Position numbers and translations under genes: made by a program. Under the pieces are notes generated by a model, which saw nothing but the letters and a program-made list of their open reading frames with translations, did no database searches and was not told the origin of the DNA. From positions 1,568,001 through 1,632,000 of the forward strand of contig CP000066.1 in the NCBI GenBank assembly GCA_000002445.1: a stretch of 64,000 bases of DNA, in the 5' to 3' direction. This DNA comes from Trypanosoma brucei. Its lineage: Eukaryota. This document shows, in pieces, positions 8,075-28,645 of this stretch; the stretch's first letter is position 1, and each line of letters starts with the position of its first letter.

Positions 8075-10864
8075 ATGATAGAATATGCGTGTGGTTGGCT
8101 ACACGCGCCTGTCAGTAGTTTCAACAGTAGGGGGGAAACCACTTCAAGCAGTGAAGGAGCAACGTGGGGTATCGCATTGGGAAGATTCGGCCCTACCGCC
8201 AAGTGTTCTCTTGTGAGAGTACTGGCAGTGATAGTTTCAGGGTATTATTTTTTTGTTGGTTTATGTTTAGTTAGTGCCGCAAAATGCATATGTACCGACT
8301 ACTGGTCTATGATCGAGGGTTTAACAAACGTAGCGAATGTGTCCGAGCTAAGGGAAGTTACCAACCTCACTGACCAGCTTAGATATTCACTCATAGTTGT
8401 TTCATGTGTGGCTCTGTTCGTTCATCTCGCTATTTCTGTTGTCGGAGTGAGGCACATCCGTAGTTTGTTCATGCAACTCGATGCAAATGTCGAGGCGTTG
8501 CACCGTGTTGCCGATGCGTTGGCAGTGCCACTCAACGGTGATGCAACGGGTACTATTGATGTGAATCCGAAGCAGTCCTTTTCCCATGCAAAAAGTTGTA
8601 AAGGGATTCAAAACGCTGCAACACCTGAAATGGCGAATGACATGCTTATGCTTTTGCACCAACTCCGTGGGTTACTTCCCGATTCCACATTTGAAAAGGA
8701 GCTAACAGACGTCGCTGTGCGGCAGTGTAACGGTGCCAAACTTCAATGTGAAAAGGCGAATCTTCCCGTTGGTTCCAAACTTGAGGCCCACTCACCGCGT
8801 GTTATGTCTCAGTTCAGAGTTTCACGGAGAACTGCAGCGGGAATGGTTCGAAATCGGGAGATTTTGGAACACGGTGGCACTGGCACGACCTTCAGGAAAA
8901 GGAGGGTCACGGTGGTGGTTGTTTGCCTCTCCGACTTTGCGCATCAAGTTGAGGAGGATTTGGAACATTGTCTTCATTTTTCCCGACAATTTCTTTCTGT
9001 TGTAACTCAAATTGTTGAGAGGTATGGCGGTATCATTGCGAGTGTAGCACCTAACAAGGTTGTTGTGACATGGAATGCCTTTACGGATTCTCCCCGTCAC
9101 GCACAAAACGGAATGCAATGTGCCTGTGATGTACTTGTTGCGCTCCAACCATTTACACAAGGTTTGAGTGTGTCACCGTCTCTTAAGTTGTTTCCGACCA
9201 TTGTTGCTACTTCAGGGTTTGTTATGGCAGGAACGATCAGAGTTTCTGACCATGAGGACGATGTCTTAAGTGTTTACGGGAATTGTATTTCCCTGAGTGA
9301 GGAACTTCCATCACTATTAGGTGCGCTGAGAGTAAGGTGTGCGTGTGTTGGGGCGCTGGCACATTTTTGCCCAAGCAACTTTTCGTGTATTCCACGAGAC
9401 TGCGTAACAGATGCCAATAACAAAAGGCACATCATTTATGAGATGCAAGATAAGGCTCTCGCACAGCGCCGGCGTCATGTTGAGGCATTTCAAGCATTTC
9501 AGCGAGGAGAACATGGTGTCGCACACCATCTCTACACTCGAATACACGAAGAAACACGTAGTGATTGGAATGCCTTGCGTATGAGTCAGATTTGTTATTA
9601 CTTGGAAGAAAGCCACAGCGTTTACGCCCAACGCTTTCCGGAGTGGCAACTGTTCCCTGTTGAAAGAGAGCACTCATGTGTTAATGAACTTCAACTTGGT
9701 AGAAGGGCGTACGGGTTTATGAAATGCGAGGCTTCACCTGTTGAGGATCATATTCGCCGTGCCATATTAAAGCAAACAGATACACGTGCCCTTCCGCGCT
9801 CTTATGGACGAAATGAGGAGGAGTCGTACCGAACGCCTGAAGTCGCAAAATCAGATAAGTGTTTGATAGTTAAATGTAACTCGTCTTCTTTGCGGTATGT
9901 CACGGAGTTTTGCGACCGTCAAGGGTTGGTGTTTCGCATGTCTAAACAAGTATTAGGCACTGGGGCGTGTGGTGTTGCATTCTTGGGTTTGTCACAAACT
10001 GGTGCACTGGTTGCCATTAAGGAAATCGAACTTCCATTAAGGACTCGGGCACAAAACAGTAACTTAAGCGACCTAAACCGTAGGAGATTACGTCGGAAGG
10101 GAATTCAAGTGGAAAGTGCAATGGAGAAAACTTTGGATGGTATTATCAATGAAGTAAGTTTACTCTCCCGACTGCGTCATGCAAACATAATGGGTTACAT
10201 ATCGTCTGCCATTTGGGGTAACAAATTGCTGATTGTAATGGAGTTGGGTAGTGGTGGGAGTCTCTACGATCTCATACAAAAGTTTGGAAGTATAAAAGAG
10301 AGTCGTGCGAGACGATACCTCCGCGATGTATTGCAAGGACTGGAGTATTTGCATCGCAAGAATATTGTGCACCGGGACATTAAACCTCAGAATGTTCTGC
10401 TACTTGAGACCGGTTTATGTAAACTTACTGATTTTGGTACTTCACAAAACTTGCAGAAAATCGCCAACAGTTGTGCACCTGAGGGAACTCCCCCTTATAC
10501 GGCACCTGAAGCAGCGAGAGGAAAAGCGGAAAAGGCATCTGATATTTGGAGTTTTGGCATTATGATGTTGTATGTTTTAAGTGGTTCCCTCCCATGGCCA
10601 AACATGAACCAAATGACTTCTCATGCATTTTTCTACAAGGTGGGACATGTGGAAAGTTTTATGCCATGTGTAGATGATAAAATTTCTCACGATGCGAAGC
10701 AAATCGTCAAGCGTTGCTGCCAACGCGACCCGAAAGAACGGGCCACCGCACGGGAACTTTTGAATAATTCATTTTTTAACTGCACGGACACTTCTACGAG
10801 TTGCCTCGTTAAGGACTGGCCATCCTCTTGTGGGAATATCTCGAGAAGCGAATTTCATTTGTAG
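8075..10864 (+). CDS. Transmembrane Ser/Thr protein kinase (STE/MEKK-like) with a central degenerate nucleotidyl-cyclase-homology-like segment
   Basis: The first ATG is at 8075; the track start at 8072 is TTG. The N-terminal region has hydrophobic segments (VLAVIVSGYYFFVGLCLVSAA; LIVVSCVALFVHLAISVVGV). The C-terminal kinase domain has GTGACGV (Gly loop), VAIKE, HRDIKPQNVLL, DFGTS, GTPPYTAPE and DIWSFGIMM. The central block VTVVVVCLSDFAH...ERYGGIIASVAPNKVVVTWNA...LFPTIVATSGFVMAGTI...VLSVYGNCISL resembles the class III cyclase catalytic domain but has substitutions at metal-binding positions. Confidence 0.8.
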   Translation: MIEYACGWLHAPVSSFNSRGETTSSSEGATWGIALGRFGPTAKCSLVRVLAVIVSGYYFFVGLCLVSAAKCICTDYWSMIEGLTNVANVSELREVTNLTDQLRYSLIVVSCVALFVHLAISVVGVRHIRSLFMQLDANVEALHRVADALAVPLNGDATGTIDVNPKQSFSHAKSCKGIQNAATPEMANDMLMLLHQLRGLLPDSTFEKELTDVAVRQCNGAKLQCEKANLPVGSKLEAHSPRVMSQFRVSRRTAAGMVRNREILEHGGTGTTFRKRRVTVVVVCLSDFAHQVEEDLEHCLHFSRQFLSVVTQIVERYGGIIASVAPNKVVVTWNAFTDSPRHAQNGMQCACDVLVALQPFTQGLSVSPSLKLFPTIVATSGFVMAGTIRVSDHEDDVLSVYGNCISLSEELPSLLGALRVRCACVGALAHFCPSNFSCIPRDCVTDANNKRHIIYEMQDKALAQRRRHVEAFQAFQRGEHGVAHHLYTRIHEETRSDWNALRMSQICYYLEESHSVYAQRFPEWQLFPVEREHSCVNELQLGRRAYGFMKCEASPVEDHIRRAILKQTDTRALPRSYGRNEEESYRTPEVAKSDKCLIVKCNSSSLRYVTEFCDRQGLVFRMSKQVLGTGACGVAFLGLSQTGALVAIKEIELPLRTRAQNSNLSDLNRRRLRRKGIQVESAMEKTLDGIINEVSLLSRLRHANIMGYISSAIWGNKLLIVMELGSGGSLYDLIQKFGSIKESRARRYLRDVLQGLEYLHRKNIVHRDIKPQNVLLLETGLCKLTDFGTSQNLQKIANSCAPEGTPPYTAPEAARGKAEKASDIWSFGIMMLYVLSGSLPWPNMNQMTSHAFFYKVGHVESFMPCVDDKISHDAKQIVKRCCQRDPKERATARELLNNSFFNCTDTSTSCLVKDWPSSCGNISRSEFHL

Positions 10865-12493
10865 CGGTATTTAGTTAAGCTTTTTTTTTGTTTTATTTTA
10901 TTTTATTTTATTTTTTTTTGGGGGGGGGGTATCCACGAAATATGTGGAATTGGAGAGGTGCGGGAAAACGGTTGGAAAGCAGAAAAGGGGGAATGCACCG
11001 CAAAAAAAAAAAAAAAGAAAACAAAAGAGAAAGAAGAGAAAGAGAAAATAAGGAAGGAGAAAAGGTGTATGAGTGTGTGTATATTTATATTCGTTCGTTC
11101 GTTCGAGTTATGTTGATGATTTTTGTACCGAACTATTTCATGTGAAAAAAAATTAAATAAATAAATATATATATATTTATTTATTTATATTAATCCTGAG
11201 TCTTACAGCATCTTAGAGTTCACTGAACATGAAACTTGAAACAATTGGTTGTCTCCATTAGTCTTTTTCTTATTTTGTCTCTCATATTTTTCCTCTTTCT
11301 TCTTTTCCTTTTGATATTTATTCTAAACTTATCGCGATGTGTAAAAAAAAAAAAAGAAAGAAAGAAAGGAAGGAAGAAAATAAAAATGCTAGTTAGCGCC
11401 AGCGAAACGTTTAAAGATATGATTCACAATACCTCGTCTGCACTCATTACCGTCGCTGTGGGTTGTGTCATTATTGTGCTTTTATGGTTCACAGTGTGGA
11501 GTACAACACTTAAAGATGTTCCTTTCATTCATGAATTTTTTAACGCATTTACTCGACGCACGGGGTCAAAAAAAAAACCGCAAGTACGCACGAAAAAATG
11601 TACCGTCATCTTCAGGTGATTTGCAATTTTTTTTCAAAAAAAGAAAAAAGAACAAAAACAAAAAATAAATTAAAGAAAAATGAAGAAAAATGAAGGTGTC
11701 GTGACGTACAGCTCCCCCTCAGATGAGGAAGTGGAATGGGGTTTGGAGAAAGTGTGGCTAAACTTATTTCACCACTTCCTTTTTTTTTTAATATTTTGGT
11801 GTTTTTTTTTTTGTGTGTGTGTGCGTGTGTGCGTGTTTCTTATTTATTTTTATTTTTTTCTTTTTTTCTTTTTTTTTTGGGGGGGGGTGGGAGGGGGGCT
11901 ACTTACTTATATCATGAAAGAACTTTTTTAAAAAAAACAAAAATAGAAAAAAAGAGAAAAGAAAAGAAAAGAAAAAAAGAGGGCCCCTTCTTCTTCTTAT
12001 TATTATTATTTTGCTTATTAGACACATATGCTTTTTTCATGATGTCCTGAGAAAGTTTTTAAAGCATTTGGAAGGAAGGGAAGGGAAAAAAAAACCCCTC
12101 CCCCCTCCCATCACACACACACACACACACACGAAATATGTTTTACGTTTTTGTGATAATGTTCATGCAATGCAGCGATTTGAAATATTTTAAGAGTTGT
12201 TGTTTTTGTTTTGTTATTTTCATTTTTGTTTGACGTTTGCGTTTATTGAATTCCTTTCTTTGTTTTTTTTTATTTCGTTGTTGTTTTTTCGTTGTTATTG
12301 TTATTATTGTTATTATTGTTCACACTGTTTGCTCGTAATACCTTTCTCTCGTCTGTCACTGTTATATTTTGCACAGTTGCCATTGTTGTTACCCTTATGT
12401 CCTCATATCTTTGCTACGTTATTTGTGGCAATTCCTCATGTCACATGTAATATATTTAAATCTTTTTTGTTCTTGTTTTTTTTTGTTTTATTC

Positions 12494-12527
<34 letters not shown>

Positions 12528-12706
12528 GCGGTGGTATCTTTATTTCTTCCTCTTCTTTTTTGTTTAAAAAATATATATATATATATATATTTTTTTCCTT
12601 TTCTGTTCTATAGTTAAGTTTCATTGATAATCTAAACAAACTTATAGATTCCCCCCTCTCCCTCATTCATAATACACTAACGATTTGTTTTTGTAATACC
12701 CATCCA
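10865..12706. repeat. 1.8-kb microsatellite- and homopolymer-rich intergenic region
   Basis: Contains poly-T/poly-G/poly-A runs and several microsatellites: (TG)n near 11816-11836, (CA)n at 12112-12133, (GTT)12 at 12497-12531 and (TA)n at 12573-12591. ORFs here translate to poly-F/L/C/V low-complexity strings. Confidence 0.7.
11386..11619 (+). CDS. Possible small single-pass membrane protein (hypothetical, 77 aa)
   Basis: ATG at 11386. MLVSASETFKDMIHNTSSALITVAVGCVIIVLLWFTVWSTTLKD... has one clear TM helix and a basic tail. It is the only non-low-complexity ORF in the long intergenic region, and it could be spurious. Confidence 0.2.
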   Translation: MLVSASETFKDMIHNTSSALITVAVGCVIIVLLWFTVWSTTLKDVPFIHEFFNAFTRRTGSKKKPQVRTKKCTVIFR

Positions 12707-13873
12707 ATGGCAATCAAATCACGAGGAGTTAAAGTTGTAATTATAGTTTTTATTGCCGTGTATGTGTTAACAATTACAAATGTTCTCATTAGTTTACATC
12801 GTTTCCACCAAAATTCCCAAAAGGAGGTGGTTAAAATTCAACGAGATGAACCATTACCAGATTTTGAGTACACCGAAGATGACAAAATGGCGTTAGAATT
12901 TGTAACACCGCATATTATAAAGAAATGGCGGAATCATAATTATCTCGTAGCACTCGGTATTCCTTCACCAGATAATGAAGAGCGACGGCGGCGGAGACAA
13001 CTTCAACGGGACACATGTTGGAAATATCCGGGAGTTGCCACCGTAGAAAATAATTTTGAAGGAGATATGCTCGTAGCATATGTATTGGCTCGTCATCCAC
13101 AATTTGATTACAAATATTCACCTGAATTGAAGGATGAAGCAAATAAATGGCGGGATGTCATTACGCTCCCCATAAATGAAGGTCGTGTCACAACTAAAAA
13201 GAAATTAGGAGAAGTTGCGCATTGGGGAATTGATGCGGAAATTGGTATGAGTCGAAAAATATATTTGTGGTTTGAATTGGGAGCGCGCCTTCTTCCGAAA
13301 ACAAGTTATTTCTCTAAAGGTGATGATGACGCGTTTTTCCATTCACCGCAGTACATTATTGATTTGAGAACTTTACCGCGTCGTGGTGTTTATTGGGCAT
13401 TTCATTGGCGTATAAATCCAGTGAGGCCTTTTATATTTGGCCGTGGCCTCTTGTACACCATGTCGAGAGATGTTGTTAATAAATTTGTAACATATGAACC
13501 GGTACGCCGCCTTGTGCATGTGCCATTCAGTTTTGATCGGCTTCTTGAATTTAAGCAATCCATTATGGAATATGAAGATGCCATGGTCGGTCATGCACTT
13601 TCTTATCAAAATCCAGAAGAATTATTATTTGTGAATGAAAGTTGCTGCCGCTTCATCATATTGAATGGTAATGAGTGCAAGCCACCGAAAAATAACAATT
13701 TTGTAGTAGTTCATGGTATTCAAGAAGAAGAATACGCAATAATGATGGAACGCTTTAAAAATTACACAACTCCCGTTCCTGTTCAATTTATTCCCTCAAA
13801 ATATGGTTGGATGGCCAATTGCACATTACCACCAGATCCACAACGGCGGCGGGATGCGGAATGGACGGCATAA
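12707..13873 (+). CDS. Type II membrane glycosyltransferase (UDP-Gal/UDP-GlcNAc-dependent GT family expanded in trypanosomes; GT-A fold with DxD)
   Basis: 388 aa with a short cytoplasmic N-terminus. It has a signal-anchor VKVVIIVFIAVYVLTITNVLISL, a luminal domain with the DxD motif KGDDDAFFHSPQY, and several conserved Cys. The overall layout matches the trypanosome beta-1,3-N-acetylglucosaminyltransferase-like GT family. Confidence 0.65.
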   Translation: MAIKSRGVKVVIIVFIAVYVLTITNVLISLHRFHQNSQKEVVKIQRDEPLPDFEYTEDDKMALEFVTPHIIKKWRNHNYLVALGIPSPDNEERRRRRQLQRDTCWKYPGVATVENNFEGDMLVAYVLARHPQFDYKYSPELKDEANKWRDVITLPINEGRVTTKKKLGEVAHWGIDAEIGMSRKIYLWFELGARLLPKTSYFSKGDDDAFFHSPQYIIDLRTLPRRGVYWAFHWRINPVRPFIFGRGLLYTMSRDVVNKFVTYEPVRRLVHVPFSFDRLLEFKQSIMEYEDAMVGHALSYQNPEELLFVNESCCRFIILNGNECKPPKNNNFVVVHGIQEEEYAIMMERFKNYTTPVPVQFIPSKYGWMANCTLPPDPQRRRDAEWTA

Positions 13874-16075: not shown

Positions 16076-17999
16076 AACTACGGTTTTGACTACTAAGTTT
16101 TTTTTAAAAGGTGAATGTTTTTAAACAGGTCAATTGTGGAATTTGAAAATATGCAGAAGCGGTTCATGGGTATTTGAAAGCATTATGTTGCTATGTTTTT
16201 TTTTCCCGCGCCGCACGCAATTTATGAACAAAGGGCGGCAGGTAAATATTGTGATATGCGGTGTGTAGCAAACTGTACCAATAATGGAATGTATGTACTC
16301 GTTTACGCGTCAAAAGGGGGAAAATGTTTGGCTTGAGGGTGTAAATTAATGATTGGAACAAACTCATTAACACAGAGAGAAACTTAAGAGCAGCAAAATA
16401 CAACACAGTCTTCCGTGAAATAGCAATAGGGAAAAGGGGAAAACTGCACTTCCAACAAACCGGATCGGGGAAGAATAGAGATAATATAAAAGTTGGGGAT
16501 CCCGCCAATCAAATTGGTTGTGTTCAACAAATTCAACAACAGATGTCCATTCGAGCAACTGAAGGGATTAAGAGGATGCAACCGGCTTCTCAATTTAAAC
16601 ATGTGGAGAGCGTTTGGGGAAACCCTGAATCCATCGGGGCTCTCAAAATTCCACACGGAGCTCAAAACTGAACTAACTGAAGAGGGTTAGTCAACATCAG
16701 TAAAGGTTTGATGTAAGCATTGAAGAAAGGAGGAGGAGGAGGAGAAGGGAAAAGTGTCATAAATTCACGTCTCATATTCCATTTCCCTCTTTATATCTTT
16801 GTTGTTTGTTACAATTGAATATCTGGGGCTCTTTCACTCGGCATGCCTTTCTCGTATTGCATCCCGTGGTATATATTTTTGGAAATATTATGCCTCAAGT
16901 AAATAAAGCGCACGCGTGTGTCACCGTTCAAAGCAATGTTTACGTGTCATTTGTTAAAGCACTGGTCTCACTTACGTCCCCTCGGCCCATAATTTTCTCT
17001 GCTCTGAATTTAAAGAGGATGCATTTATGACCTGGTAGGGTGGAAGAAACAAAAGAATTTAAAAAGGGGGAACAGTAAAAATAAGGTAACGATGAGTTAA
17101 GAGGGCGCTGCTTGAATATTGCTAATGCGGCACCTTTGTAACATCGCAACATTTTGGTGTAAGAAGGTTTTCTTTGTCAGCATGTGGTATGATATATTGC
17201 ATAATTATGCCTTTGGTGGATAAGGTTTACCGTGTCTGTATGCTGGATTTTTATAATGAAGATTACTCCACAAATGTAAAGTAAAAAAGGGGGAGTAATT
17301 TATAAACGATAATTCTGATTCGCGATAATTTCGGTAGAAATGGTATTATTTGTTTGATTTGGGTTGAACAGTCGAAACGTGTCACATTTTTCATAGGTTG
17401 TGGGGCGTTTAAAACTGTGATTATGGTCGGGTAGATTGTGTTATATATGTGAGACTGTGAAGCCACCAGGTGGATTATAAGAGGGATTTGATAAATTGGG
17501 AAACATAAATTCGTATAACTTTCGGTTGTTGACATAATTGAGTTTGCTTTTTTTTTTGATAATGGTTACAAGAGCGTGATGGAACTGTATCCGAGCAAAT
17601 ATGTCGGGATATCACCCGGAAATTTCAGAGGAATGGACTCTGATAGAATGTTAAGTTTAAATGAGCTGAAAGTGAGCGCTGCGTGCACTGTGCCCCCAGA
17701 AAATGTATCGAGCAGGGATTCCAGTCCCTTCCCTGCGGTCTCTGGAATCTGCGTCGTGCGAATATCAGAAGTGCACGTTTTCTGCAGAAGGTTGCGGAAA
17801 ATAAGAAACAGAGGTTGCGTTTTTGTAATTGAATTGTGTGACTAGTGTGGTCACCAAAATATGCGCATGTGACATGTTATGCCCGAAATGAAGCGCATAT
17901 GATTCTTTCAAGATTCATATCTTGGTGGTACTCTATTATTATTTTTTTTAATTGAAGCTTGAAAATTCTCAAAGGTGAGTAAGGCTGGGTAAAGGGAAT

Positions 18000-19472
18000 A
18001 TGCGCATTGGGAAGTATTGCGTCGTTTTTCTGCTAGTGTGGACGCAAGCAACCAAGAGAAGCGTGGGAAAACCCACAAATATTATAAATCAGGAAGAATT
18101 TAAAGCATTATGTGCTTTCGTGAATTTGGCGAATGAATCGGTAGACTACGCAGGTCTCGAAGCCGAAATCAGGGACGCGGCAGCAGATATCGGGGCTATT
18201 TTTCTTGCGTCGCAGCAAGAAAGCATTTCGAAATTGAGGGAGCAAATTGAGATCTGGCGCGAGGTTGAAGCAACCAATAACGGAGGGAACAACCGAGGCA
18301 TTAAAAAGTGGAGTGTTTGGGAGGAAGCGAGAAGAAAGCTAATAGATGAAGGCGGAACAAAATATGTGCAATGGGTTGAATTGGGCTTGAGTGATGCTGA
18401 GAAGCAGAAGATAGAGGAAGCTATGGATGAGACAGTCAAATGCATGGCGGAGGAGAACGGCTTGTGGGACACTTTGCGGGAAATGCCAGTAAAAGGAAGT
18501 ATAACAAAAGCAATATTCGGATCCAGGGAAAGGCAAGTGCAGATTATGAAAGGACGCGGTAGCCGCGAAACCGCTTGTGGCAGGGGATTATTCCCTGGAG
18601 ACTGGGCGGGCACGGCATTGAGCGCTGACTTACTGTGCCTGTGCGCCGCTACGGAACGCAGGGCCGCCACCAACGAGGGTTGCTGCACAGGATGCGAGAC
18701 AGGGGGAAATGGCGTTGCTTGGGATCCAAGGGTGCATAGTGAGGAGAGGTGGAATTTGCTTAGAAGTAAATGTGAAAAGGTCAGCAGCGGTACTCCCCTT
18801 TCAAGTCGAGCGCTGTCGGTTGCGGAGAGTACATTTTTCAACCAACTGAAGATCTCAAAAGGGTCAACATCAGGAAGACCAACGCTACTGGGTAAATTTG
18901 GAACTAGCTTTTCCGTGGGTTGTACCGGGGAAATCACCGAGAAAGAGGGACGTTGCGTTCGGTATAGCCACAGCCATGTTGACAGAAATAATCCAGCGCT
19001 ACCCTGGCTTACAAACTTAAGGGAGGCGGCAAATGCAGTAGATCAGTTGAATGCAGTTGATACAAAGCTCAAACATCTACGCGTTGGTATAGCCACCTTC
19101 CACACGAAGCATGTTGATTTTAAATCGCGTGAAAAAGGAAACGGCGGCGACCCTATTCTGGGAAGCGGTGGCGTAGAGGGTGAAGTTAACACCAATGAGT
19201 CAACGAAGGCGAACACAAACGATGGTAGAGCAAAAAAGGCTGGTGAAAGCAAAAGAACACCTGTCGACAACATTTCACATAAATGCGAAGGTTATAGGCA
19301 GGGAAAAACATGCAAAAGTCGAAAAGTGGAAACGGAATGTGACTGGGAGGAGGGTACATGCGTTGGCTCTGCCAGTGAGCCAGTCACTTCGCCTCTGAGG
19401 CAAAGACCACCTACTTCAGGGAAGGTAAACTCCATTAGATGCTCACTGAGTTTGTTTTTAATACTATTATAG
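18000..19472 (+). CDS. VSG-related (variant-surface-glycoprotein-like) protein
   Basis: 490 aa, with an N-terminal hydrophobic signal. The N-domain is helical and rich in A/E/L, and carries a ...SADLLCLCAATE... motif. The C-terminal block CEGYRQGKTCKSRKVETECDWEEGTC is Cys-rich and ends in the hydrophobic tail SIRCSLSLFLILL, consistent with a VSG C-terminal domain plus GPI signal. Length and layout fit a T. brucei VSG. Confidence 0.5.
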   Translation: MRIGKYCVVFLLVWTQATKRSVGKPTNIINQEEFKALCAFVNLANESVDYAGLEAEIRDAAADIGAIFLASQQESISKLREQIEIWREVEATNNGGNNRGIKKWSVWEEARRKLIDEGGTKYVQWVELGLSDAEKQKIEEAMDETVKCMAEENGLWDTLREMPVKGSITKAIFGSRERQVQIMKGRGSRETACGRGLFPGDWAGTALSADLLCLCAATERRAATNEGCCTGCETGGNGVAWDPRVHSEERWNLLRSKCEKVSSGTPLSSRALSVAESTFFNQLKISKGSTSGRPTLLGKFGTSFSVGCTGEITEKEGRCVRYSHSHVDRNNPALPWLTNLREAANAVDQLNAVDTKLKHLRVGIATFHTKHVDFKSREKGNGGDPILGSGGVEGEVNTNESTKANTNDGRAKKAGESKRTPVDNISHKCEGYRQGKTCKSRKVETECDWEEGTCVGSASEPVTSPLRQRPPTSGKVNSIRCSLSLFLILL

Positions 19473-22400
19473 TCATCGTGAGCGAAACCATTATTAAGAA
19501 TGGTTTAGGTTATAAAATGGTTTAGCTAACTATTTTATTCGATCTACAGGGGGAGATATGTGTTCTTACTTTATTATGTAGGACTGCTTTTGGTGGTTAT
19601 CATGATTATGTTCTTTCAGTATGTAGGCTGCCGCTGGAACCCACACATTTAAGCTGATCATGCCTCCTATGGAAGGTTTTATGGGGGTAAAATACAGGGT
19701 GTTGTGGACTAGTTTTACCTCGAAAGGGGAATGTACATCAAGAATCCGGGGGCTGTCCTTCATATCTATTTGCTCCCTGTGTGCAACTCGTTTGCTGTGA
19801 AGAAGAGTGGGGCGTTTATTCACTATTTTGTTTTTTTCTTTGCGACAACGTACTCCGAGTACTAAGGATGGACATCCACTGAGAAGTTATACGCTGGCTG
19901 GTATATGCTTTTGGTGGAGTCTATGTATACCTTGGCGCATAGAGATGGCGAAGTTGGGAAGGTGAGCGCGTTGTGTTGTCTTTGGTAAGCTAGTATACTG
20001 CTGTAAAGCGAGTTTTAATGACGGGGGAGTATTTACGGTGCGGGTATTATGTTGCTTGGATTGCATTCTTAGGAAAATTTGGACGGAGAAGTGTTCAGTT
20101 GGGAAGATTATTACCACGAAATGGAGTGGCATTCGCGAGTGTGTGCAGGAAAATATATCCTCGTAGAAAGTGTGCTGATGGGACAGTACATTTTCGTGGG
20201 GAATATAAGGCTCTTTACCACAGTATTTTTGTTGCGGGGATAACTGGTTACTCACTGGCACCAAGTGCCGCCAATCTCAAGCTCATGTCGTTGTTGGTGT
20301 TGCCTCTTTCAGTGAGAGGCAACGGCACAGACGAAGGTACATCAGCGGGTAGTGTTGCACAGCGCATAGGTTAAGGGGAATTCATTTCGGTAAGGAATTC
20401 CGCTAAACACCGGCAGCTCGAAAATTACGCACCGCTAAAGTGATAGTTGAAGCTTCAACCGCCTAAAGTTACCGTTGGAAAACAAAAATGCAATATGTGC
20501 AACAGAGGTCTTGTTTGCACATGGAAATGGGCCTGTCTTACCGTTGAACTTTCCGGCGATTTTGGAGTCACACGGCTGCCAGCCCGTCAGGTGTGCAACC
20601 AAAAGGCAACCTCACTCTGAAGAATCCCACTGCCGCATTTGCAGGTGGTAAAACTGCAATGGATAGCGGTACGGAACCGACTTCAGAAGAACGAACTGCG
20701 AGGCATAACAGCGGGGGAACGGGCACCAAGGGAGAAAGAAGCAAGGTGGTTTTCCGTGCCGCAGGGTATGTCGCTCCAGGGAAACAGGTATCTAGTTCGA
20801 CTCCTGCAAACTCTCTTAACAGCGGCGCTTGTTCCTCGCCCCATATCACCACTGACCGAGGAGCAAGCATTTTCCACTCCTCATCATACCCAATCTATCA
20901 TACAACGAATCCGATTGTTATGTCCTTTTTATACCATATAAATATATCTTCTCTTTCAAAGCAGTAAAGTGCTGGAGGAGGTCAATACGGAAACATTTAT
21001 AATTATAAAAATTGTTTCTACGAATCATTTTTCTAGAGGAAGTGCATAGAGATGCCAAATTACCCTAACCCGAACCAATTGAAGAATGTTTGAATGTGCT
21101 GAAGCACTCTCTCAAAAGATGGAAGAGGAGGTACGACATTGCCCAAATAATACAACTCCGTGTTGAAAGTAGTGAATTGAAGTACAGGCACGGATCAACA
21201 TTAGCTCGCATCAGTTTTCACGCTACAAACTAAGTCTTTTAATTGGGTTAGTGCAGCAGCCGAGATAAGCGCTGAGGTTATCAACTTGATGGAAGTAGTG
21301 TCTGTCACAAACAAACCTTCGAGGTGCGGAGCAGAGGTCTTATCGGCACGTATATTACAAATTTCGGGGAGAAAGGCTTAGGGAAAAGTAAGATTATCGT
21401 ACAAACACCCGTCAGTTGGGGGTTCGTCAAGAAAATATAAGTCAGATAGATTATAAATTAGGAATCGGGATGTATACATTTTTTTACATGATAAATTTTG
21501 GAGCAGCGGAAGTAAAGGTTTCCATGGGTAGAAGATGGGGATGTGCACGGCTAAGGTGTTGGTGTTTTTGATACTGGCATCCAGGTAGCAAGTGTAAAGG
21601 GTGCTAATTGTGATGAGTTGAAGATTCTTCGTGGTTTCCTGAGGCCTGTTTGGGGGTATTTAAATGTGGTTGACGAAGGAAGCAAGGAACGCGTTACAGG
21701 CACTTGAAACCAAGGAATCGAGTCCTTACTGGGGCGATATCCCATGGCACCGATAGGTTGTAGAACAGAAAGCACACATTCAATCAGCGACGAATGCAGC
21801 ATTTGTTCCGTGTGCGAGGAAAAAGTGAGCAACGTACTTAAAATAAACCCCGAAAACCCTTTGTCAACACCCAGGACAAAGCAAAGCGACTTGAGCAACC
21901 ACAAAGAATTGACGAATTTGGTCGAACAAGCCTCTGAGCTGTACATGAAAAACTCACTGAAAGTCAGAGTGACGGCAGAAGATTTTCAAAAGGATGCAGA
22001 GGAAATACTCTACGGTATAGAAGACAAAAAAAAGTCCAAAAGGTATGGAACTAAGAAGGGAGCAGGCTTGCGGTAAAGAAGTATCAAGCTGAAACAACTA
22101 CTTTCGGCGTGCGCTAACTATAGACCTGATGTGCTTGTGCTTTCCCCCAGAACTACCTTTAGCTGCCGCGTTGTGTTGCGATAGGTGCAACATGGAACCA
22201 AACACCGCGACCTGGGACGTAGAAACCTCCACCAAGATAACCGATTTTATGATCGAAAAATGTGGAGATTGCCCGCTTCCATAAGTGAGTTTTGTGAAAA
22301 CTATGAAGAAAAACTTCGTGAAGCTAAATGATCTCGGAAAGTTTAGGAAGAAATCCAGAGGAAAGGCTTTCTGTGCTGTAGGTTGGGACAATAGGGAAGA

Positions 22401-24951
22401 TATGCAGAGTTGCTCGGGAAGAACAAAGTCGGCAACCTGTGCGCAGTACAACACAAGCGAAGGAGGTCTTGCCTGGGGAGAGGTGTCTTAGCTAAAAAAA
22501 AAAACTAATGAAGTTACAAAATCAATTGCGAGATTTAAGACAATATGGAACTCAACGGAAAATGCAAGAGGCAACAACTAAACTGGAAAGGCAGATTGAT
22601 ACTTTTTCGAACAGGGAGGTTGACGAGGAACTGGAGCACATTCAACTGGTACAAAAACATGAGCCACCCGCAAAGCATCAGCATCCGTCTCCACGCGTGG
22701 AAGCAACGGAAGGTAATGACAAACAAGTCATGACCGAAAACTTAAACAGCAAGCCTAACGATAGAGTTAGGGCACATGCTGCGGAAGGAAACTCGGGGAA
22801 TCCTGTCTTGCAACAGGGAAATGAGTCCAAAGAAATCCCACATCAGCCACAGCGACCAAAAAGCGGCACCCAAATTGTTCCGCCTCTTAAGGTTCTTTTG
22901 CTTTTCCTGTAGAACAATACACAGGTTTTTATGTTCATAGTGATAACAGTTTGAACAACCAAATTCTCTACGGAATTCCGGAAGCTGACTTTCGATTGGA
23001 ACCACTATCCTATTTCCCCTTTCTGGAAAAGAACTACTGGTAACGAACAGAGCACACTCAGGCTCTACAGGATCAAACTCACTGGGAAAACTATTGTCAC
23101 TAAGGGTGAAAAAAAAAAATCGTGGAGCACCATCAGTGTACCTAATGGTTTCATTTGAGTGGCAAATAAATAAAATCAAAACATGAAGGAATGGGAAAGT
23201 AGTTCATTTCGGCGGAGTACGCAGAAGGTGCGAGGCTGTTGCGCTGTTAAAATAATATCTGAAACTCCACCAGAGTAGGCAACACTCGTCTTGAGAGAAA
23301 AATAACGGACATGTCACAAAAACAAATGAAAATTTCAGTCTATTGCCTATTAATCTTTTTATGATGGGTTGAATGTGAAACTACCGTAGATTTTTTCGTT
23401 CTGACTGACTGTAGGAGACAAAAGCACTTCAAATGCGCTCTCCGGCAATAACGGCCAGCGACGAGGTGAAGTGGAAGCTACAGTGAGTGACAGGTGCGTG
23501 AGAAGCGTTAACGTAAATGCCTTCGTTCACCTGTGTACAAAATGTTAAAACGTGACAAAGGAAGCGACCTCAGAAAAATACGTAAAAGTCGCGAGAACAT
23601 ATGGATCGACAAGGCAAAAAAAAACAATCGCTCAAATCCGAGATGGTGGAGGAGAGATCGAGTATTATATCGATAAAAACCACATCAGCGGTGCACACCA
23701 AAATAACGAGTGAAAGGCACACGTGAGCACAAAAGTGCGCGAGATCTAACCTAATTTAGCGGATAACCGCAGTGCTACTGCGAAAAGTAAAAGGGGACAC
23801 CTCACACCAAGAAAACAACTGTGTGTTTCGTGCAAGTTTAGAAGGGAAAATGGTAAGACCGTGACACAAAGGATCAGAGAAGTTTTCACAGTATTTTTAA
23901 AAATATGCACTCACAAAAGCTGCCGCACAAATCAGTGAGTTGCACCATAAAACCTCAAAAATATCCGCCGATAACACAACCGTGCGGTTAACCACCCGTA
24001 AGAAACAATGGACTGTGTCGCACCGGCGAAAAGGAGGTAAACAAGTTCAGAAATATGAAAAAAAAAAAGTGTATGTGACGTGCGACTGTTACATCCCTTA
24101 CAGAAGAATCAATACCCGTGACTACATTATGAACCCGGAAGTTGTATTAAGCGTCAGCCGGACGACTAAACCAGGGTGTGGCATGCATCACTAACCACAC
24201 ACGCATAAACACAAAGGGAAAGATTGCAAAATTATATCACAAGCCCCAAGGAAACACTCGAATACCATTGATCAACCAAAAACGAAGGAATGTCTAATAA
24301 CATGCAGACAGCCTTCACCAGATGGGATGTTGAATGCAGAGAGCGTTGGTTGGGAGTATATGGCATGAAAATCGTACGGACGAGAAGCAATCAAAAGTTA
24401 AATGTCACCCTTGGTGGTTCGGACAAACAGTAGTTAAGAAGTGGTAACAAGCACAAAGCGCAAAGAACAAAAGGAAGGGAGAATGATGCCAAAAAGTGAA
24501 GATGACGACCGCCGCTGAAGAGCGTGTGTATGTGACCTACAACCGGAGAAAAAAAAGGAGTCTAGCAAAAAAAAAAACGCAGCAGAGGATGCCGAGTCGA
24601 GCTAAGTTAAGGAGGGGGAAATAAAACTTGAAGCCAAAAGTACAAACCCGGAGAAGAGTAAATGTTCCCACACACTACCGGGTGATCGATCCGGAGTTAG
24701 CACCTAATTTCCGCTAACTCTTTCTCAAGTTATTACCATATTTTTACGAATATCGTTGTTTTAGCTTGCGAAAATTGTCCCGAAAGTCATCACTAGAACA
24801 AGAGTATTTTCCAGCTGCAACACCCCAAACTGTTGAGAAAAAAAAAGTTGCACCGTCTCACTTATAATAAAAAAATATCAAAAAATATATTGGAATTCAA
24901 TCAAGAACACCACTTTTCTTCTATTTATGTTTCCTTTTAAGAAGAGGAGCG

Positions 24952-25944
24952 ATGGAGAACAAATATTTAGTGTGGTGCATGTTTTTTTGTTTAACGGTTG
25001 TGGGGGGCAAAGCTAATGCAGTGAAAACAACGCTAAAGAAAGAAACGAATTGCCACACAACTGTTAAAGCACTGTTCAACAAACGTGAAAACTGTCATGA
25101 TCTGGCCTCCGATGCAACGAAAATAAATGAGGATGTTGACATCGGAACAGATGCAGATAGATGGACTGCTTGCACATGGTTAGAATATGATAAGAGGCGT
25201 ACGGAGACACAATGCATATTGAGGTTTAACAACACATATGGAGAGAAATTAGTATGCACCTACGAAACAAAGGGCAATCGCCAAGACCTAAGTTGCAAAC
25301 CAGAGGGTCGTTGCGAAGACGCTCGCGAGCGGTACCTTTTAGGGGAAGAAGGATGTCCGAAGCCTGCACCACGTGAAGAACCAAAAAGAAACAAAACCGA
25401 AAGGTGTCTTGATGAGGTTTATGGGTCATTCAGCGGTGACCAGGAGTGTGCGAAACTTAAAATAGGAAGCGAGGTCGCCGAGCAAATTATATTCAGGGAG
25501 AACGGAGATGACAAAACACCAGAATGTATAGAAGCAAGTGGCCCCCCAGAGTCGAAAGTGGTTGGAGAAGCATGCGTAATAAAGTTGCGAACCGAGCCAC
25601 ACCCATCAGAATATATTTGCAAAATGGAGGGTTCTGGTGAGGAAAGGAAAATAAAATGCACAAGAGAAACATCGAAAACAGTTCCTCAACCTACGACCAC
25701 AAGGAAGAGACGAGGCAGTACTGGATCCATGCGCAAAAGAAGTGACGACGGTGGTAACACTGAGGTCACCCTGAAAGAAGATAAAGACAAAACACAAGAT
25801 GAGGATGAAGGCCAAAAAGAAGAAAGAAAAGAAGAAAGCGGTGAAGAAACTGGTACAGCAAAAGCTCGAATCAAAAGCAAAACTTATTGGAAATCAAATA
25901 ATCCTATTATCATGCTTTTAACACTTTCGTTATTGTTGCTTTAA
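24952..25944 (+). CDS. Diverged leading member of the tandem surface-protein family (signal peptide, Cys-rich ectodomain, K/E-rich stalk, GPI-signal-like tail)
   Basis: 330 aa. It shares Cys spacing and motifs with the array genes (TQCILRFNN..CTYET, GEAC.IKLRT, ERKIKCT, WKSNNPIIMLLTLSLLLL), but the ectodomain is only about 40-50% identical. Its 3' flank is nearly identical to the flanks in the array. Confidence 0.7.
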   Translation: MENKYLVWCMFFCLTVVGGKANAVKTTLKKETNCHTTVKALFNKRENCHDLASDATKINEDVDIGTDADRWTACTWLEYDKRRTETQCILRFNNTYGEKLVCTYETKGNRQDLSCKPEGRCEDARERYLLGEEGCPKPAPREEPKRNKTERCLDEVYGSFSGDQECAKLKIGSEVAEQIIFRENGDDKTPECIEASGPPESKVVGEACVIKLRTEPHPSEYICKMEGSGEERKIKCTRETSKTVPQPTTTRKRRGSTGSMRKRSDDGGNTEVTLKEDKDKTQDEDEGQKEERKEESGEETGTAKARIKSKTYWKSNNPIIMLLTLSLLLL

Positions 25945-26389
25945 TACTGTTTAATAATAAACGGTAATGTAAACTGTTTGGAAGAAAGTATGCTTTTAAC
26001 GGAGAAGGGAAGTGAGTGTATCAAAACATTTTTCTTGTAAGACATACATTAAGGGAACATTTTTATGTTTTTTTTTTGTCACGCGTCACTGCTGTAAAAA
26101 AAACTTCTTGCGCTCAAGTTGTATCGAAAGTATTGAATTTTCAACGATGTTGTTCGGTGGGGAAGGTAAGGGGAATAGGATATATAGTTGTGTCGGGGAC
26201 GGCGTTCTGTTTGTTGAAAGGGGTAAAGAGAGGAAAAAACCCTACACCGGGTGAAAGTAACTGACTGATGAAGTTCGTTTGGATCGATAGACAAGTGGAA
26301 CTCGCCGCAAAAAGGTTGTAACAGCATTTAACCGGCACATGCGGCTTAGCGTTTTAGGTTGAGAAATGCACGTATAAAGGCACGGATGC

Positions 26390-26700
26390 TCAGGAAATAC
26401 CCTTATTTCTGATAACATAATTGGACGCTAAGCTAGAGAAGGCACAACACCAGATTCGAGAATACAACAGAAAAATGACGGGCGATGGCACCGACGAAGA
26501 GGAACAATTGAAGCGGGTCGCTGAAATCGATAACATCAATGCCCACGGCAGCCTCCTCTCGACGCGCGGACAAAACAAGAAAAAAAAATGCAGCTTCAGA
26601 AAAAAAAAAAAATGTTTCTTTGGGAAACCACTTGAAACTGTTGAGGAAAAGAGGGTTTGCCACGCCCAGCCGCTAATGATAATGTGAAATGGAAATTTAC
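26390..26700 (+). promoter_or_regulatory. Conserved ~300-nt intergenic element, a putative 3'UTR/processing regulatory element. It recurs after every array gene: 28268-28578, 30146-30390 (shortened) and 31961-32290
   Basis: The block starts about 450 nt after each stop codon and is near-identical between units. It contains an 88-codon ORF (MDAKLEKAQHQIREYNRK...) that is intact in three copies. In the copy before gene 3 the ORF is broken by a deletion, so selection is probably acting at RNA/DNA level rather than on a peptide. Confidence 0.3.
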
Positions 26701-26730
26701 AGTATCCATTTAACCTACAATATCATGATT

Positions 26731-26757
26731 CCTACACCTTTATCATTCTTCCTTTAG
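26731..26757 (+). promoter_or_regulatory. Polypyrimidine tract plus AG: probable trans-splice acceptor 11 nt upstream of the array-gene ATG. Equivalent sites are at 28609-28635, 30421-30447 and 32301-32327
   Basis: cctacacctttatcattcttcctttAG lies immediately before gcgaaaacaaaATG in every unit. This implies a very short 5'UTR. Confidence 0.45.
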
Positions 26758-26767
26758 CGAAAACAAA

Positions 26768-27829: not shown

Positions 27830-28645
27830 TATCATTTAATAAACGGTAATGTAGACTGTTTTGAAGAAAGTATGCTTTTAACGGAGAAGGGAAGTGAGTG
27901 TATCAAAACATTTTTCTTGACAGACGTACATTAAGGGAACATTTTTATTGTTTACTTGCCATATTGCACTGCTAAAAAACTTCTCGTGCTGGAGTTGCGT
28001 GCGAAGTATTAGATTTCTTCACCGATTCTTTTTTGTAGCGAAGGTAAGGGGAATAGGATATGTAGTTGTGTCGGGGACGGCGTTCTGTTTGTTGAAAGGG
28101 ATAGCAGGAAGAGAAAACTCTACCCCGGGTGAAAGCAACTGACTTGTGCAGTTCGTTCGGATCGATAGACAGGTGGAAATCGCCGCAAAAAGGTTGTAAC
28201 AGCATTTGATCGGCACATGTGGTGTAGCGTTTTGGGTTGAGAAATGCACGCATAAAGGCACGGATGCTCAGGAAATACCCTTATTTCTGATAACATAATT
28301 GGACGCTAAGCTAGAGAAGGCACAACACCAGATTCGAGAATACAACAGAAAAATGACGGGCGATGGCACCGACGAAGAGGAACAATTGAAGCGGGTCGCT
28401 GAAATCGATAACATCAATGCCCACGGCAGCCTCCTCTCGACGCGCGGACAAAACAAGAAAAAAAAATGCAGCTTCAGAAAAAAAAAAAAATGTTTCTTTG
28501 GGAAACCACTTGAAACTGTTGAGGAAAAGAGGGTTTGCCACGCCCAGCCGCTAATGATAATGTGAAATGGAAATTTACAGTATCCATTTAACCTACAATA
28601 TCATGATTCCTACACCTTTATCATTCTTCCTTTAGCGAAAACAAA

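What the first reader, a model, noticed from the sequence alone, without database searches (positions are those of the whole stretch)
18000..19472. Intact VSG-like gene sitting ~4 kb from housekeeping genes in a chromosome-internal context
This is a 490-aa ORF with a signal peptide, a helical A/E/L-rich N-domain, a Cys-rich C-domain and a hydrophobic GPI-signal-like tail. It lies on the same strand as, and a few kb downstream of, SPT16, NF-X1, a kinase and a glycosyltransferase.

VSG-related genes in internal positions are transcribed by pol II and are not used for antigenic switching, so their functions are largely unknown. The CLC motif it shares with the downstream pseudogene at 58206 suggests a local VSG-related subfamily.
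Basis: partly seen in the sequence, partly recalled or inferred. Interest (0 to 1): 0.5.

Follow-up and report, generated by a model that had tools for sequence, protein, structure and literature searches.

The report
Annotated VSG-related gene Tb927.3.5680
The 490-codon ORF is real, but it is the already annotated Trypanosoma brucei chromosome 3 gene for a 'VSG-related' protein, an invariant relative of the parasite's variable coat protein, so the finding is correct but not new.

Summary
The ORF at 18000..19472 (+) exists exactly as described. Its product is identical to XP_844158.1/AAZ10599.1 of T. brucei TREU927 and to a T. equiperdum protein, both annotated 'variant surface glycoprotein (VSG)-related, putative'. 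Gene order points to Tb927.3.5680, an inference because no tool returned a locus tag.

- **Not a canonical VSG:** No 70-bp repeats and no VSG 3'UTR 16-mer were found. The C-terminal domain falls below the Pfam threshold. The gene lies in a same-strand cluster with SPT16, NF-X1, a kinase and a glycosyltransferase.
- **Clade:** It groups with six other VR-type proteins encoded on other chromosomes, apart from 50 canonical b-type VSGs (197/200 bootstraps). All seven share a short GPI-signal-like tail.
- **'Local subfamily' idea fails:** CLC is a family-wide VSG_B motif. The 58206 pseudogene is not significantly similar to this gene and resembles canonical VSGs instead.
- **Published expression:** Microarray data list Tb927.3.5680 as 6.1-fold higher in bloodstream forms than procyclic forms.

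The most likely role is a low-abundance, invariant, GPI-anchored bloodstream-form surface glycoprotein. Its ligand or function is still unknown. Already known; low interest.

The parts
18000..19472 (+). Complete coding sequence (490 codons plus stop) of the VSG-related (VR) gene, identified as Tb927.3.5680 of T. brucei TREU927 chromosome 3
   Evidence: ORF listing. The product is identical to XP_844158.1/AAZ10599.1/SCU73053.1, annotated 'VSG-related, putative'. The gene-order assignment rests on Tb927.3.5660 (GT) upstream and the Tb927.3.5690-.5730 five-copy array downstream.
18000..18068 (+). Predicted signal peptide (about residues 1-23: MRIGKYCVVFLLVWTQATKRSVG)
   Evidence: Basic n-region and a hydrophobic core at residues 7-15 by Kyte-Doolittle hydropathy. 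Helix 3-17 in the AF2 model. The cleavage site was not predicted with a dedicated tool, so the extent is inferred.
18036..19082 (+). Type-B VSG N-terminal domain (residues 13-361)
19140..19268 (+). Low-complexity G/N/E/T/K-rich linker (residues 381-423) carrying one N-glycosylation sequon (N399); N424 follows at the start of the next module
   Evidence: Composition and sequons. pLDDT below 50 for residues 397-422.
19269..19370 (+). Diverged VSG-type C-terminal 4-Cys module (residues 424-457: C429, C438, C447, W449, C454)
   Evidence: Pfam Trypan_glycop_C reaches only 12.6 bits, E=0.19, below the 21.4-bit cut-off. The only PDB sequence hits for the C-terminal part are VSG C-termini: the ILTat1.24 CTD (E=2) with all four Cys and the Trp aligned, and VSGsur residues 431-490 (E=1.7) with the four Cys aligned but Leu opposite the Trp. 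The AF2 model shows a small folded unit with pLDDT 80-89. Homology is therefore suggestive but not statistically established.
19416..19469 (+). GPI-addition-signal-like tail (residues 473-490, GKVNSIRCSLSLFLILL-type; candidate omega site S472)
   Evidence: It is the only strongly hydrophobic C-terminal segment. In the alignment of the seven VR-clade tails, a Ser/Asn sits 15-17 residues from the C-terminus and is followed by ..PLxLFLLL. The tail aligns with the GPI signal of VSGsur. No GPI predictor was available, so this is inferred.
17932..17957 (+). Polypyrimidine-rich tract (ctctattattatttttttt) followed by an AG at 17956-17957: candidate spliced-leader acceptor giving a 5'UTR of about 42 nt
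   Evidence: Read directly from the sequence. Inference only, because no RNA data were available here.

Best explanation
This is the known gene Tb927.3.5680 of Trypanosoma brucei TREU927 chromosome 3, a member of the 'VSG-related' (VR) class.

**Shown**
- It encodes a 490-aa protein with a class-B VSG N-terminal fold, a diverged single 4-Cys C-terminal module and a short hydrophobic tail.
- It lacks the DNA elements that let canonical VSGs take part in antigenic switching and high-level expression (upstream 70-bp repeats, 3'UTR 16-mer).
- It lies on the same strand as housekeeping genes in a unidirectional gene cluster.
- It belongs to a well-separated clade of VR proteins scattered over several chromosomes.

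**From the literature**
- Its mRNA is about 6-fold more abundant in cultured bloodstream forms than in procyclic forms, at a modest signal.
- Some VR proteins are detected in bloodstream-form surface preparations.

**Inferred mechanism**
- The gene is transcribed as part of the surrounding polycistronic unit, most likely by Pol II.
- The mRNA is trans-spliced at the AG about 42 nt upstream of the ATG and stabilised preferentially in bloodstream forms.
- The protein enters the ER via its signal peptide, is N-glycosylated, and receives a GPI anchor at about Ser472.
- It then sits as a low-abundance, non-variant component among the VSG coat or in the flagellar pocket. It has the same fold and a similar predicted domain layout to VSG, which may help shield it from antibody.
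- Its specific ligand or role is unknown. The best guess is a host-facing binding or auxiliary coat function, by analogy with other VSG-derived invariant proteins.
For: **Identity**
- 100% identity over 490 aa to XP_844158.1/AAZ10599.1 (TREU927) and SCU73053.1 (T. equiperdum), named 'VSG-related, putative'; the longest contig is 1,653,225 bp.
- Gene order fits Tb927.3.5660 (GT), then .5680 (VR), then the .5690-.5730 five-copy array. Tb927.3.5680 is listed as VSG-related in PMC2771046.

**Fold**
- VSG_B E=3.6e-71; PDB sequence hit to mVSG1954 at 1.3e-17.
- AF2 mean pLDDT 79.7.

**Not canonical**
- No 16-mer within 3 mismatches near the gene.
- No tandem repeat of about 70 bp anywhere in the window and no 70-bp core motif.
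- Trypan_glycop_C is below threshold here, while 27 of 57 b-type relatives hit it at E of 0.01 or better.

**Clade**
- NJ tree: the query plus P0002, P0003, P0004, P0005, P0011 and P0042 split from 50 canonical b-type VSG representatives in 197 of 200 bootstraps.
- Four of the six carry 'VSG-related' names, and the six are encoded on several different chromosomes or contigs.
- The C-terminal tail with a candidate omega Ser/Asn is conserved across the clade.

**Constraint**
- There are 0 nucleotide differences in the 1,473-bp CDS between the window and the T. equiperdum contig. The 1.3 kb upstream has 31 differences and the 2.7 kb downstream has 9.

**Expression and surface association**
- 6.1-fold up in cultured bloodstream forms versus log-phase procyclics, signal 1903.
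- VR proteins are enriched in a bloodstream-form surface proteome. One VR, Tb927.7.180, responds to surface-protein turnover perturbations.
Against: - No protein-level, localisation or GPI evidence exists for this particular VR. It was not found in the held supplementary text of the surface-proteome paper.
- The GPI signal and signal peptide are judged by eye and hydropathy only. The residue at omega+2 (Lys) is atypical.
- The literature states that the polymerase transcribing VR genes is unknown.
- No 50-99% identical protein from T. b. gambiense DAL972, the Lister 427 or EATRO1125 VSG sets, or T. b. equiperdum IVM-t1 is in the 5.8-billion-protein collection, although orthologues of its paralogues from those sources are. 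The gene may be strain-variable and dispensable.
- The microarray signal is low.
- Decayed VSG_B relics lie nearby, which suggests this neighbourhood is a birth-and-death zone.
- The locus-tag assignment rests on gene order and literature, not on a direct database look-up of the tag.
Confidence: 0.85

Rival explanations
1. It is a transcribed but functionally dispensable remnant. On this view a VSG copy was stranded in the last core gene cluster, still has an open frame, is expressed only because polycistronic transcription runs through it, and is on its way to becoming a pseudogene like its neighbours.
For: - Three decayed VSG_B-like elements lie on the same strand in the same window: 21855-22461, about 50.2-51.25 kb, and 58176-59150.
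- No near-identical protein is present from DAL972, Lister 427, EATRO1125 or IVM-t1 in the collection, while orthologues of the paralogues are.
- The microarray signal is low, 1903.
- VSG/ESAG islands are described as among the more dynamic core features.
Against: - The 490-codon frame is intact and all family-conserved cysteines are retained.
- The CDS has zero nucleotide differences from T. equiperdum, while both flanks differ.
- The tail motif is conserved among paralogues that are 38% identical or less.
- The mRNA is stage-regulated, 6.1-fold up in bloodstream forms.
- The VR clade as a whole is old and retained across subspecies.
Confidence: 0.2
2. It is a canonical silent VSG that was imported into the chromosome core and serves as an archive donor for antigenic variation by gene conversion.
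For: - It has a full-length b-type N-domain, a 4-Cys C-terminal module and a hydrophobic tail.
- The closest paralogue, P0002, is annotated simply 'VSG, putative'.
- Core 'islands' can contain imported canonical VSGs.
Against: - There are no 70-bp repeats upstream and no 16-mer downstream.
- The C-terminal domain is below the Pfam threshold.
- It falls in the VR clade, separated from 50 canonical b-type VSGs in 197/200 bootstraps.
- It lies on the same strand within a housekeeping gene cluster.
- The literature describes VR genes as lacking 70-bp repeats and as not subject to monoallelic expression.
Confidence: 0.03
3. It belongs to a different trypanosome surface family with a three-helix-bundle fold (ESAG6/7 transferrin receptor, ISG65/75, HpHbR/GARP) rather than to the VSG family.
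Against: - The Pfam scan returns only VSG_B and a weak VSG C-terminal hit.
- No class-A VSG or TfR structure appears among the significant hits.
Confidence: 0.01

Closest known systems
VSG-related (VR) genes of T. brucei (class defined by Marcello & Barry 2007, as cited in PMC2771046 and PMC2854126). Nearest members: XP_827084.1 (P0002, 38% id), XP_951521.1 (P0003, chr 2, 36%), the Tb927.3.2500 group (P0004, 35%), XP_829333.1 (P0005, chr 11, 30%)
   Same: - b-type VSG N-domain and a core-chromosome location.
- No 70-bp repeats.
- Shared short C-terminal tail (..S..(15-17 aa)..PLxLFLLL).
- Clade separated from canonical b-type VSGs.
- The identical protein is already annotated as VR.
   Different: Nothing categorical; it is a member. 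It is among the longer VRs (490 aa) and keeps a recognisable 4-Cys module, which some clade members (P0042, P0011) have lost or altered. Unlike several paralogues, no orthologue from other strains' protein sets was found.
Canonical class-B (b-type) VSGs, e.g. metacyclic VSG1954 (PDB 8B3W), VSG3 (6ELC), VSG11 (8OK4), VSG615 (8OK8)
   Same: - Conserved cysteines, including the DLLCLC motif.
- Overall architecture: signal peptide, N-domain, linker, Cys module, hydrophobic tail.
   Different: - Only 17-20% identity to the solved structures.
- No 70-bp repeats and no 3'UTR 16-mer.
- The C-terminal domain is not recognised by the Pfam model.
- It is not located in a subtelomeric array, expression site or minichromosome.
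- It does not vary between the two genomes that carry it.
Other non-variant proteins derived from b-type VSGs: Fam1 (Tb927.6.1310 array) and ESAG2
   Same: These are T. brucei-specific derivatives of b-type VSG with a signal peptide and predicted GPI anchor. They are expressed mainly in bloodstream forms from non-VSG contexts. Fam1 localises to the flagellar pocket; ESAG2 is a surface GPI protein.
   Different: Fam1 proteins are 347 aa and lack the VSG C-terminal domain, whereas this protein keeps a linker and a 4-Cys module. Its relationship to Fam1 and ESAG2 was not tested directly here. The short VR-like remnant at 50.2-51.25 kb in the window is closer to the 330-345-aa VR type.
VSG-derived receptors and resistance proteins built on the a-type fold: ESAG6/7 transferrin receptor, SRA, TgsGP (named from established knowledge; TfR is described as VSG-related in PMC11298655)
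   Same: The concept is the same: a VSG fold recruited to an invariant, host-facing function with GPI anchorage and low abundance.
   Different: These use the class-A fold and have known ligands or roles. No class-A or TfR structure scored among the significant hits. No ligand is known for this VR.

Membership tests
VSG-related (VR) genes of T. brucei | N-terminal domain homologous to b-type VSG | tested here: met
   [not shown]
VSG-related (VR) genes of T. brucei | Located in the chromosome core rather than in expression sites or subtelomeric arrays, and lacking upstream 70-bp repeats (definition as given in PMC2771046) | tested here: met
   It is on the same strand as SPT16, ECH, NF-X1, a kinase and a GT within 17 kb upstream. 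No tandem array of about 70 bp exists in the 64 kb and there is no match to the 70-bp core motif (the motif was recalled from memory). Caveat: the gene probably lies near the right end of the chromosome 3 core, judged from gene numbering only.
VSG-related (VR) genes of T. brucei | [quoted passage not shown] | tested here: met
   A seven-member clade is separated from 50 b-type VSG representatives in 197/200 NJ bootstraps. Four of the six other clade members are annotated VR. This is a simple distance tree on cluster representatives.
VSG-related (VR) genes of T. brucei | Expression not tied to the single active expression site (non-monoallelic, detectable outside it) | not testable with these tools
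   Literature only. Tb927.3.5680 mRNA is 6.1-fold higher in cultured bloodstream forms than procyclics. VRs are described as not subject to monoallelic transcription.
Canonical VSG (antigenic-variation repertoire) | Type A or B N-terminal domain | tested here: met
   VSG_B.
Canonical VSG (antigenic-variation repertoire) | Recognisable VSG C-terminal domain (Pfam Trypan_glycop_C; 4 or 8 Cys) | tested here: inconclusive
   12.6 bits, E=0.19, against a cut-off of 21.4. A 4-Cys module is present. Its only PDB sequence hits are VSG C-termini, at non-significant E values of 2 and 1.7. 27 of 57 b-type relatives pass at E of 0.01 or better.
Canonical VSG (antigenic-variation repertoire) | Upstream 70-bp repeats that mediate gene conversion into expression sites | tested here: not met
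   none in the window.
Canonical VSG (antigenic-variation repertoire) | Conserved 16-mer (TGATATATTTTAACAC) in the 3'UTR | tested here: not met
   Only one 3-mismatch match in 64 kb, at 12181, which is the chance level. None lies downstream of 19472. The motif was recalled from memory.
Canonical VSG (antigenic-variation repertoire) | C-terminal GPI-addition signal | tested here: inconclusive
   A hydrophobic tail is present and a Ser/Asn is conserved 15-17 aa from the end across the VR clade. No GPI predictor or experiment was available, and the omega+2 residue is atypical.
ESAG6/7 transferrin receptor, ISG and HpHbR three-helix-bundle families | Profile or fold assignment to these families in preference to VSG | tested here: not met
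   [not shown]

The most novel reading that the evidence does not exclude
Tb927.3.5680 could be a strain-variable, invariant receptor or host-factor-binding protein built on the class-B VSG fold. That would make it a b-type counterpart of the a-type-derived transferrin receptor, SRA and TgsGP. Its presence or absence between T. brucei strains and subspecies would then contribute to differences in host range or virulence. My evidence does not exclude this. The fold is intact, the CDS is invariant between two genomes, the mRNA is enriched in bloodstream forms, the tail looks like a GPI signal, and no orthologous protein appears in several other strains' sets.
Probability: 0.1. Interest if true: 0.6.

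Novelty: already known. Interest (0 to 1): 0.12.

Why it matters
The VR class matters because its function is still unknown, more than 15 years after it was described. VR proteins are invariant yet VSG-shaped, and at least some are exposed on bloodstream-form parasites, so they could in principle act as receptors or be vaccine-relevant antigens. This particular observation adds nothing to that question. The gene is already annotated as VR, listed in expression studies, and fits the class definition.

The modest additions from this work are:
- A structural assignment to class B, closest to metacyclic VSG1954.
- Evidence that the VR clade keeps a diverged VSG C-terminal module and a conserved tail.
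- A hint that this member may be missing from other strains.
- Detection of decayed VSG_B relics next to it.

Tried and rejected
- **Word-index protein searches:** two searches, full length and N-domain only, returned only the self cluster. They were useless for finding paralogues. They were informative only in that no 50-99% identical protein exists in the collection.
- **Structure libraries:** the AFDB50 fold library was not available.
- **Primary paper:** Marcello & Barry 2007, the primary description of VRs, is not held. The class definition was taken from papers that cite it.
- **Surface proteome:** the held supplementary text of the surface-proteome paper has no occurrence of Tb927.3.5680. 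This is uninformative, because the files may be truncated or use other identifiers.
- **Exact-protein look-ups:** look-ups for the neighbouring ORFs 39474-40361(-), 60735-61709 and 12707-13873 found nothing on record.
- **Bacterial-type scans:** the promoter and terminator scan gave chance-level counts and is irrelevant to a trypanosome. There are no tRNA genes in the window.
- **Position on the chromosome:** a literature search of higher gene numbers, meant to place the gene along chromosome 3, was confounded by three-digit IDs. It suggests only that few genes lie beyond about Tb927.3.5770.
- **Local CLC subfamily:** rejected.
- **Canonical archive VSG:** rejected.
- **ESAG6/7 or ISG fold:** rejected.
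- **Tree building:** the first attempt timed out and the second hit numerical errors. Both were redone with a faster distance calculation.
Full report
**Observation**

The window contains an ATG-initiated ORF at 18000..19472 on the + strand, encoding 490 aa. The protein matches Pfam VSG_B (PF13206) at E=3.6e-71 over residues 13-361. Its only other hit is a sub-threshold match to the VSG C-terminal domain model (12.6 bits, E=0.19, cut-off 21.4).

Hydropathy and composition support the described architecture:
- A basic-then-hydrophobic N-terminus (core at residues 7-15).
- A largely helical N-domain rich in E, A, G and L.
- A G/N-rich linker (381-423).
- A 4-Cys module (C429, C438, C447, C454).
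- A terminal hydrophobic stretch, SLSLFLILL.
- Three N-glycosylation sequons (N45, N399, N424).

Pfam confirms the upstream same-strand neighbours: SPT16 (735-3803), an enoyl-CoA hydratase (4763-5698), an NF-X1 zinc-finger protein (5986-7623) and a protein kinase (8072-10864). By gene order it corresponds to Tb927.3.5660, an annotated and highly divergent UDP-Gal/GlcNAc-dependent glycosyltransferase.

**Identity**

The protein sequence is identical over its whole length to XP_844158.1/AAZ10599.1 of T. brucei brucei TREU927 and to SCU73053.1 of T. equiperdum. Both are annotated 'variant surface glycoprotein (VSG)-related, putative'. The longest contig carrying it is 1,653,225 bp, which I take, from memory, to be about the size of TREU927 chromosome 3.

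The window differs by about 2% from the T. equiperdum contig around the gene. It is therefore most likely TREU927 itself.

The five-copy tandem array downstream (24952-33399) consists of one divergent copy and four near-identical ones. It matches the published TREU927-specific duplication Tb927.3.5690-.5730. With the glycosyltransferase as .5660, the 490-aa gene is Tb927.3.5680. A 2009 microarray study lists that identifier as 'VSG-related' and as 6.1-fold up-regulated in cultured bloodstream forms relative to log-phase procyclics, at a modest signal of 1903. The locus tag comes from gene order and the literature, not from a direct look-up.

**Fold and family**

An AlphaFold2 model built on 57 b-type sequences has mean pLDDT 79.7. 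The N-domain is mostly above 85, the small C-terminal module is at 80-89, and the linker and pre-tail segments are disordered.

| Search | Class-B VSGs | Other trypanosome surface proteins |
|---|---|---|
| Foldseek vs PDB | mVSG1954 E 7.9e-13; all 27 significant hits are class-B VSGs (VSG11, VSG3, VSG615) | ISG65 E 3e-3; HpHbR not significant |

**Why it is not a canonical VSG**

- The conserved 3'UTR 16-mer is absent. The single 3-mismatch match in 64 kb lies elsewhere and is at the chance level.
- No tandem repeat with a period near 70 bp exists in the window, and a 70-bp-repeat core motif has no match. Both motifs were recalled from memory.
- The C-terminal domain fails the Pfam cut-off, whereas 27 of 57 b-type relatives pass at E of 0.01 or better.

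The C-terminus still looks like a diverged VSG C-terminus. The only PDB sequence hit for the last 110 residues is the ILTat1.24 VSG C-terminal domain, with all four Cys and the Trp aligned (E=2). A three-sequence profile of the VR module plus tail hits only the C-terminus of VSGsur (E=1.7); its four Cys and its GPI signal align, though Leu sits opposite the Trp. These hits are not significant individually. I treat the homology as suggestive.

**Relatives**

A full HMMER scan of 1.84 billion cluster representatives found 126 proteins at E of 1e-3 or better, which is a small family. Every hit whose name was looked up is from Trypanosoma brucei or T. equiperdum.

The closest relatives are:
- P0002: XP_827084.1, 38% identity, full length.
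- P0003: XP_951521.1, a VR on a 1.19-Mb chromosome.
- P0004: the Tb927.3.2500 group.
- P0005: XP_829333.1, a VR on a 5.26-Mb chromosome.

Beyond these there is a continuum of canonical b-type VSGs at about 25% identity.

A neighbour-joining tree places the query with P0002-P0005, P0011 and P0042 (a VR on a 1.06-Mb chromosome). This group separates from 50 canonical b-type representatives in 197 of 200 bootstraps.

The seven share a characteristic tail. A Ser or Asn lies 15-17 residues from the C-terminus and is followed by ..PLxLFLLL. I interpret this as an omega site plus a short VSG-type GPI signal. This is an inference, because no GPI predictor was available.

**The 'local subfamily' claim**

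- The CLC motif is nearly invariant across the b-type alignment; C213 and C215 are conserved in at least 90% of sequences.
- BLASTP between the 490-aa protein and the 58206-59306 ORF is not significant. The best HSP has E 0.054 and the CLC segment E 0.15.
- The 58206 element is a VSG_B pseudogene (Pfam E=1.3e-21 for the C-terminal half of the domain). Its best matches are canonical VSGs, namely Lister 427 VSG 608 and VSG 1116.

The motif therefore reflects family membership, not a local subfamily.

A decayed VSG_B-like relic lies at 21855-22461, only 2.4 kb downstream of the intact gene. It has stop codons and a frameshift but keeps recognisable IDLMCLC and CCDRC motifs. A further short-VR-like remnant lies at about 50.2-51.25 kb.

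**Context**

- All ORFs of 200 aa or more from 735 to 33399 are on the + strand, apart from shadow ORFs. The gene therefore sits inside a unidirectional cluster downstream of housekeeping genes. This fits read-through Pol II transcription, although the literature states that the polymerase for VR genes is unknown.
- A pyrimidine-rich tract and an AG at 17956-17957 could serve as the spliced-leader acceptor (inference).
- Downstream of the array the window becomes gene-poor and GC skew reverses between about 34 and 44 kb. After that come VSG_B pseudogenes and an ESAG1-family ORF (60735-61709, Pfam E=4.6e-105).
- This arrangement resembles the published 'VSG/ESAG islands' of core chromosomes.
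- From the gene numbering the locus is probably close to the right-hand end of the chromosome 3 core. I could not verify that.

**Constraint and distribution**

Between the window and the T. equiperdum contig there are no nucleotide differences in the 1,473-bp CDS. The 1.3 kb upstream has 31 differences and the 2.7 kb downstream has 9. This is modest evidence of constraint, given how closely related these taxa are.

Against that, two word-index searches of 5.8 billion proteins found no 50-99% identical protein. The same collection does hold orthologues of the paralogues from T. b. gambiense DAL972, the Lister 427 and EATRO1125 VSG sets, and T. b. equiperdum IVM-t1. This member may therefore be missing or disrupted in other strains. 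That is absence from protein sets, not proof of absence from genomes.

**Mechanism**

*Shown here:*
- A class-B VSG fold with a secretory-type N-terminus.
- A diverged Cys module and a hydrophobic tail.
- No recombination or expression elements of canonical VSGs.
- A position within a same-strand gene cluster.
- Membership of the VR clade.

*From the literature:*
- The mRNA is enriched in bloodstream forms.
- Several VR proteins are enriched in a bloodstream-form surface proteome.
- One VR, Tb927.7.180, behaves like a GPI surface protein in turnover studies.
- VRs are described as poorly understood and not monoallelically expressed.

*Inferred:*
- Polycistronic, probably Pol II, transcription.
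- Post-transcriptional up-regulation in bloodstream forms.
- ER import, N-glycosylation and GPI anchoring at about Ser472.
- Residence as a low-abundance invariant protein within the VSG coat or the flagellar pocket.

The specific role is not known. A host-facing binding function is the most attractive guess, by analogy with other VSG-derived invariant proteins. A dispensable remnant remains a serious alternative at about 20%.

**Verdict**

The one original suggestion, a local CLC subfamily, is wrong. Novelty: already known. Interest is low.

Noticed in passing
window 21855-22461 (+), possibly from about 21530: A decayed VSG_B/VR-like pseudogene lies 2.4 kb downstream of the intact VR gene. 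Its conceptual translation keeps 'IDLMCLC', 'CCDRC..W' and 'C.QY' motifs, and an upstream signal-peptide-like 'MGMCTAKVLVFLILA'. It has several stop codons and a frameshift near 22040 (HMM iE 1.7e-8; tblastn E about 1e-7). This suggests an old local duplication or a second insertion that has since died.
   Followed up: partly
window 24952-33399 (+): A five-copy tandem array (330, 353, 353, 354 and 353 aa) has a first copy only about 46% identical to the other four, which are near-identical. It matches the published TREU927-specific duplication Tb927.3.5690-.5730, which is absent from T. b. gambiense DAL972 and T. evansi STIB805. The product has a signal-peptide-like N-terminus, many conserved Cys, a K/E/T-rich stalk and a hydrophobic tail (..NNPIIMFLTLSLLLL). 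It has no Pfam hit. It looks like an uncharacterised GPI-type surface protein family.
   Followed up: partly
window about 50203-51250 (+): A fragmented element is similar (tblastn E 1e-17) to the short 330-345-aa VSG-related proteins, e.g. XP_844699.1 and the T. b. gambiense VR CBH10871.1. Only a 175-aa ORF (50404-50931) remains open, so it is probably a pseudogene.
   Followed up: partly
window 58176-59150 (+) (ORF 58206-59306): This VSG_B pseudogene lacks the N-terminal part of the domain. Its best matches are canonical b-type VSGs (Lister 427 VSG 608 and VSG 1116), not the VR clade. TRF found no 70-bp repeats upstream of it.
   Followed up: yes
window 60735-61709 (+), with the adjacent ORF 59676-60605 (+): An apparently intact ESAG1-family ORF (Pfam ESAG1 E=4.6e-105, full profile coverage) is preceded by a 309-aa ORF with no Pfam hit. 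Together with the VSG_B pseudogene they form a VSG/ESAG 'island'. No gene with exactly this ESAG1-family product is on record in the exact-match index.
   Followed up: partly
window about 34000-46000: This is a gene-poor stretch in which GC skew turns negative (36-42 kb). The only ORF of 200 aa or more is on the minus strand (39474-40361, 295 aa; no Pfam hit and not on record). It may be a strand-switch region separating the housekeeping cluster from the VSG/ESAG island. It contains no tRNA genes.
   Followed up: partly
protein collection, relative to window 18000-19472: No protein 50-99% identical to this VR was found from DAL972, Lister 427, EATRO1125 or T. b. equiperdum IVM-t1, although orthologues of its paralogues from those sources are present. 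The gene may be strain-variable.
   Followed up: partly
window 10881-12528: The long intergenic region between the kinase and the glycosyltransferase ORFs is packed with poly(A), poly(T) and (TGT)n low-complexity tracts (TRF rows). These are typical of trypanosome UTR and intergenic sequence and are of no special note.
   Followed up: no
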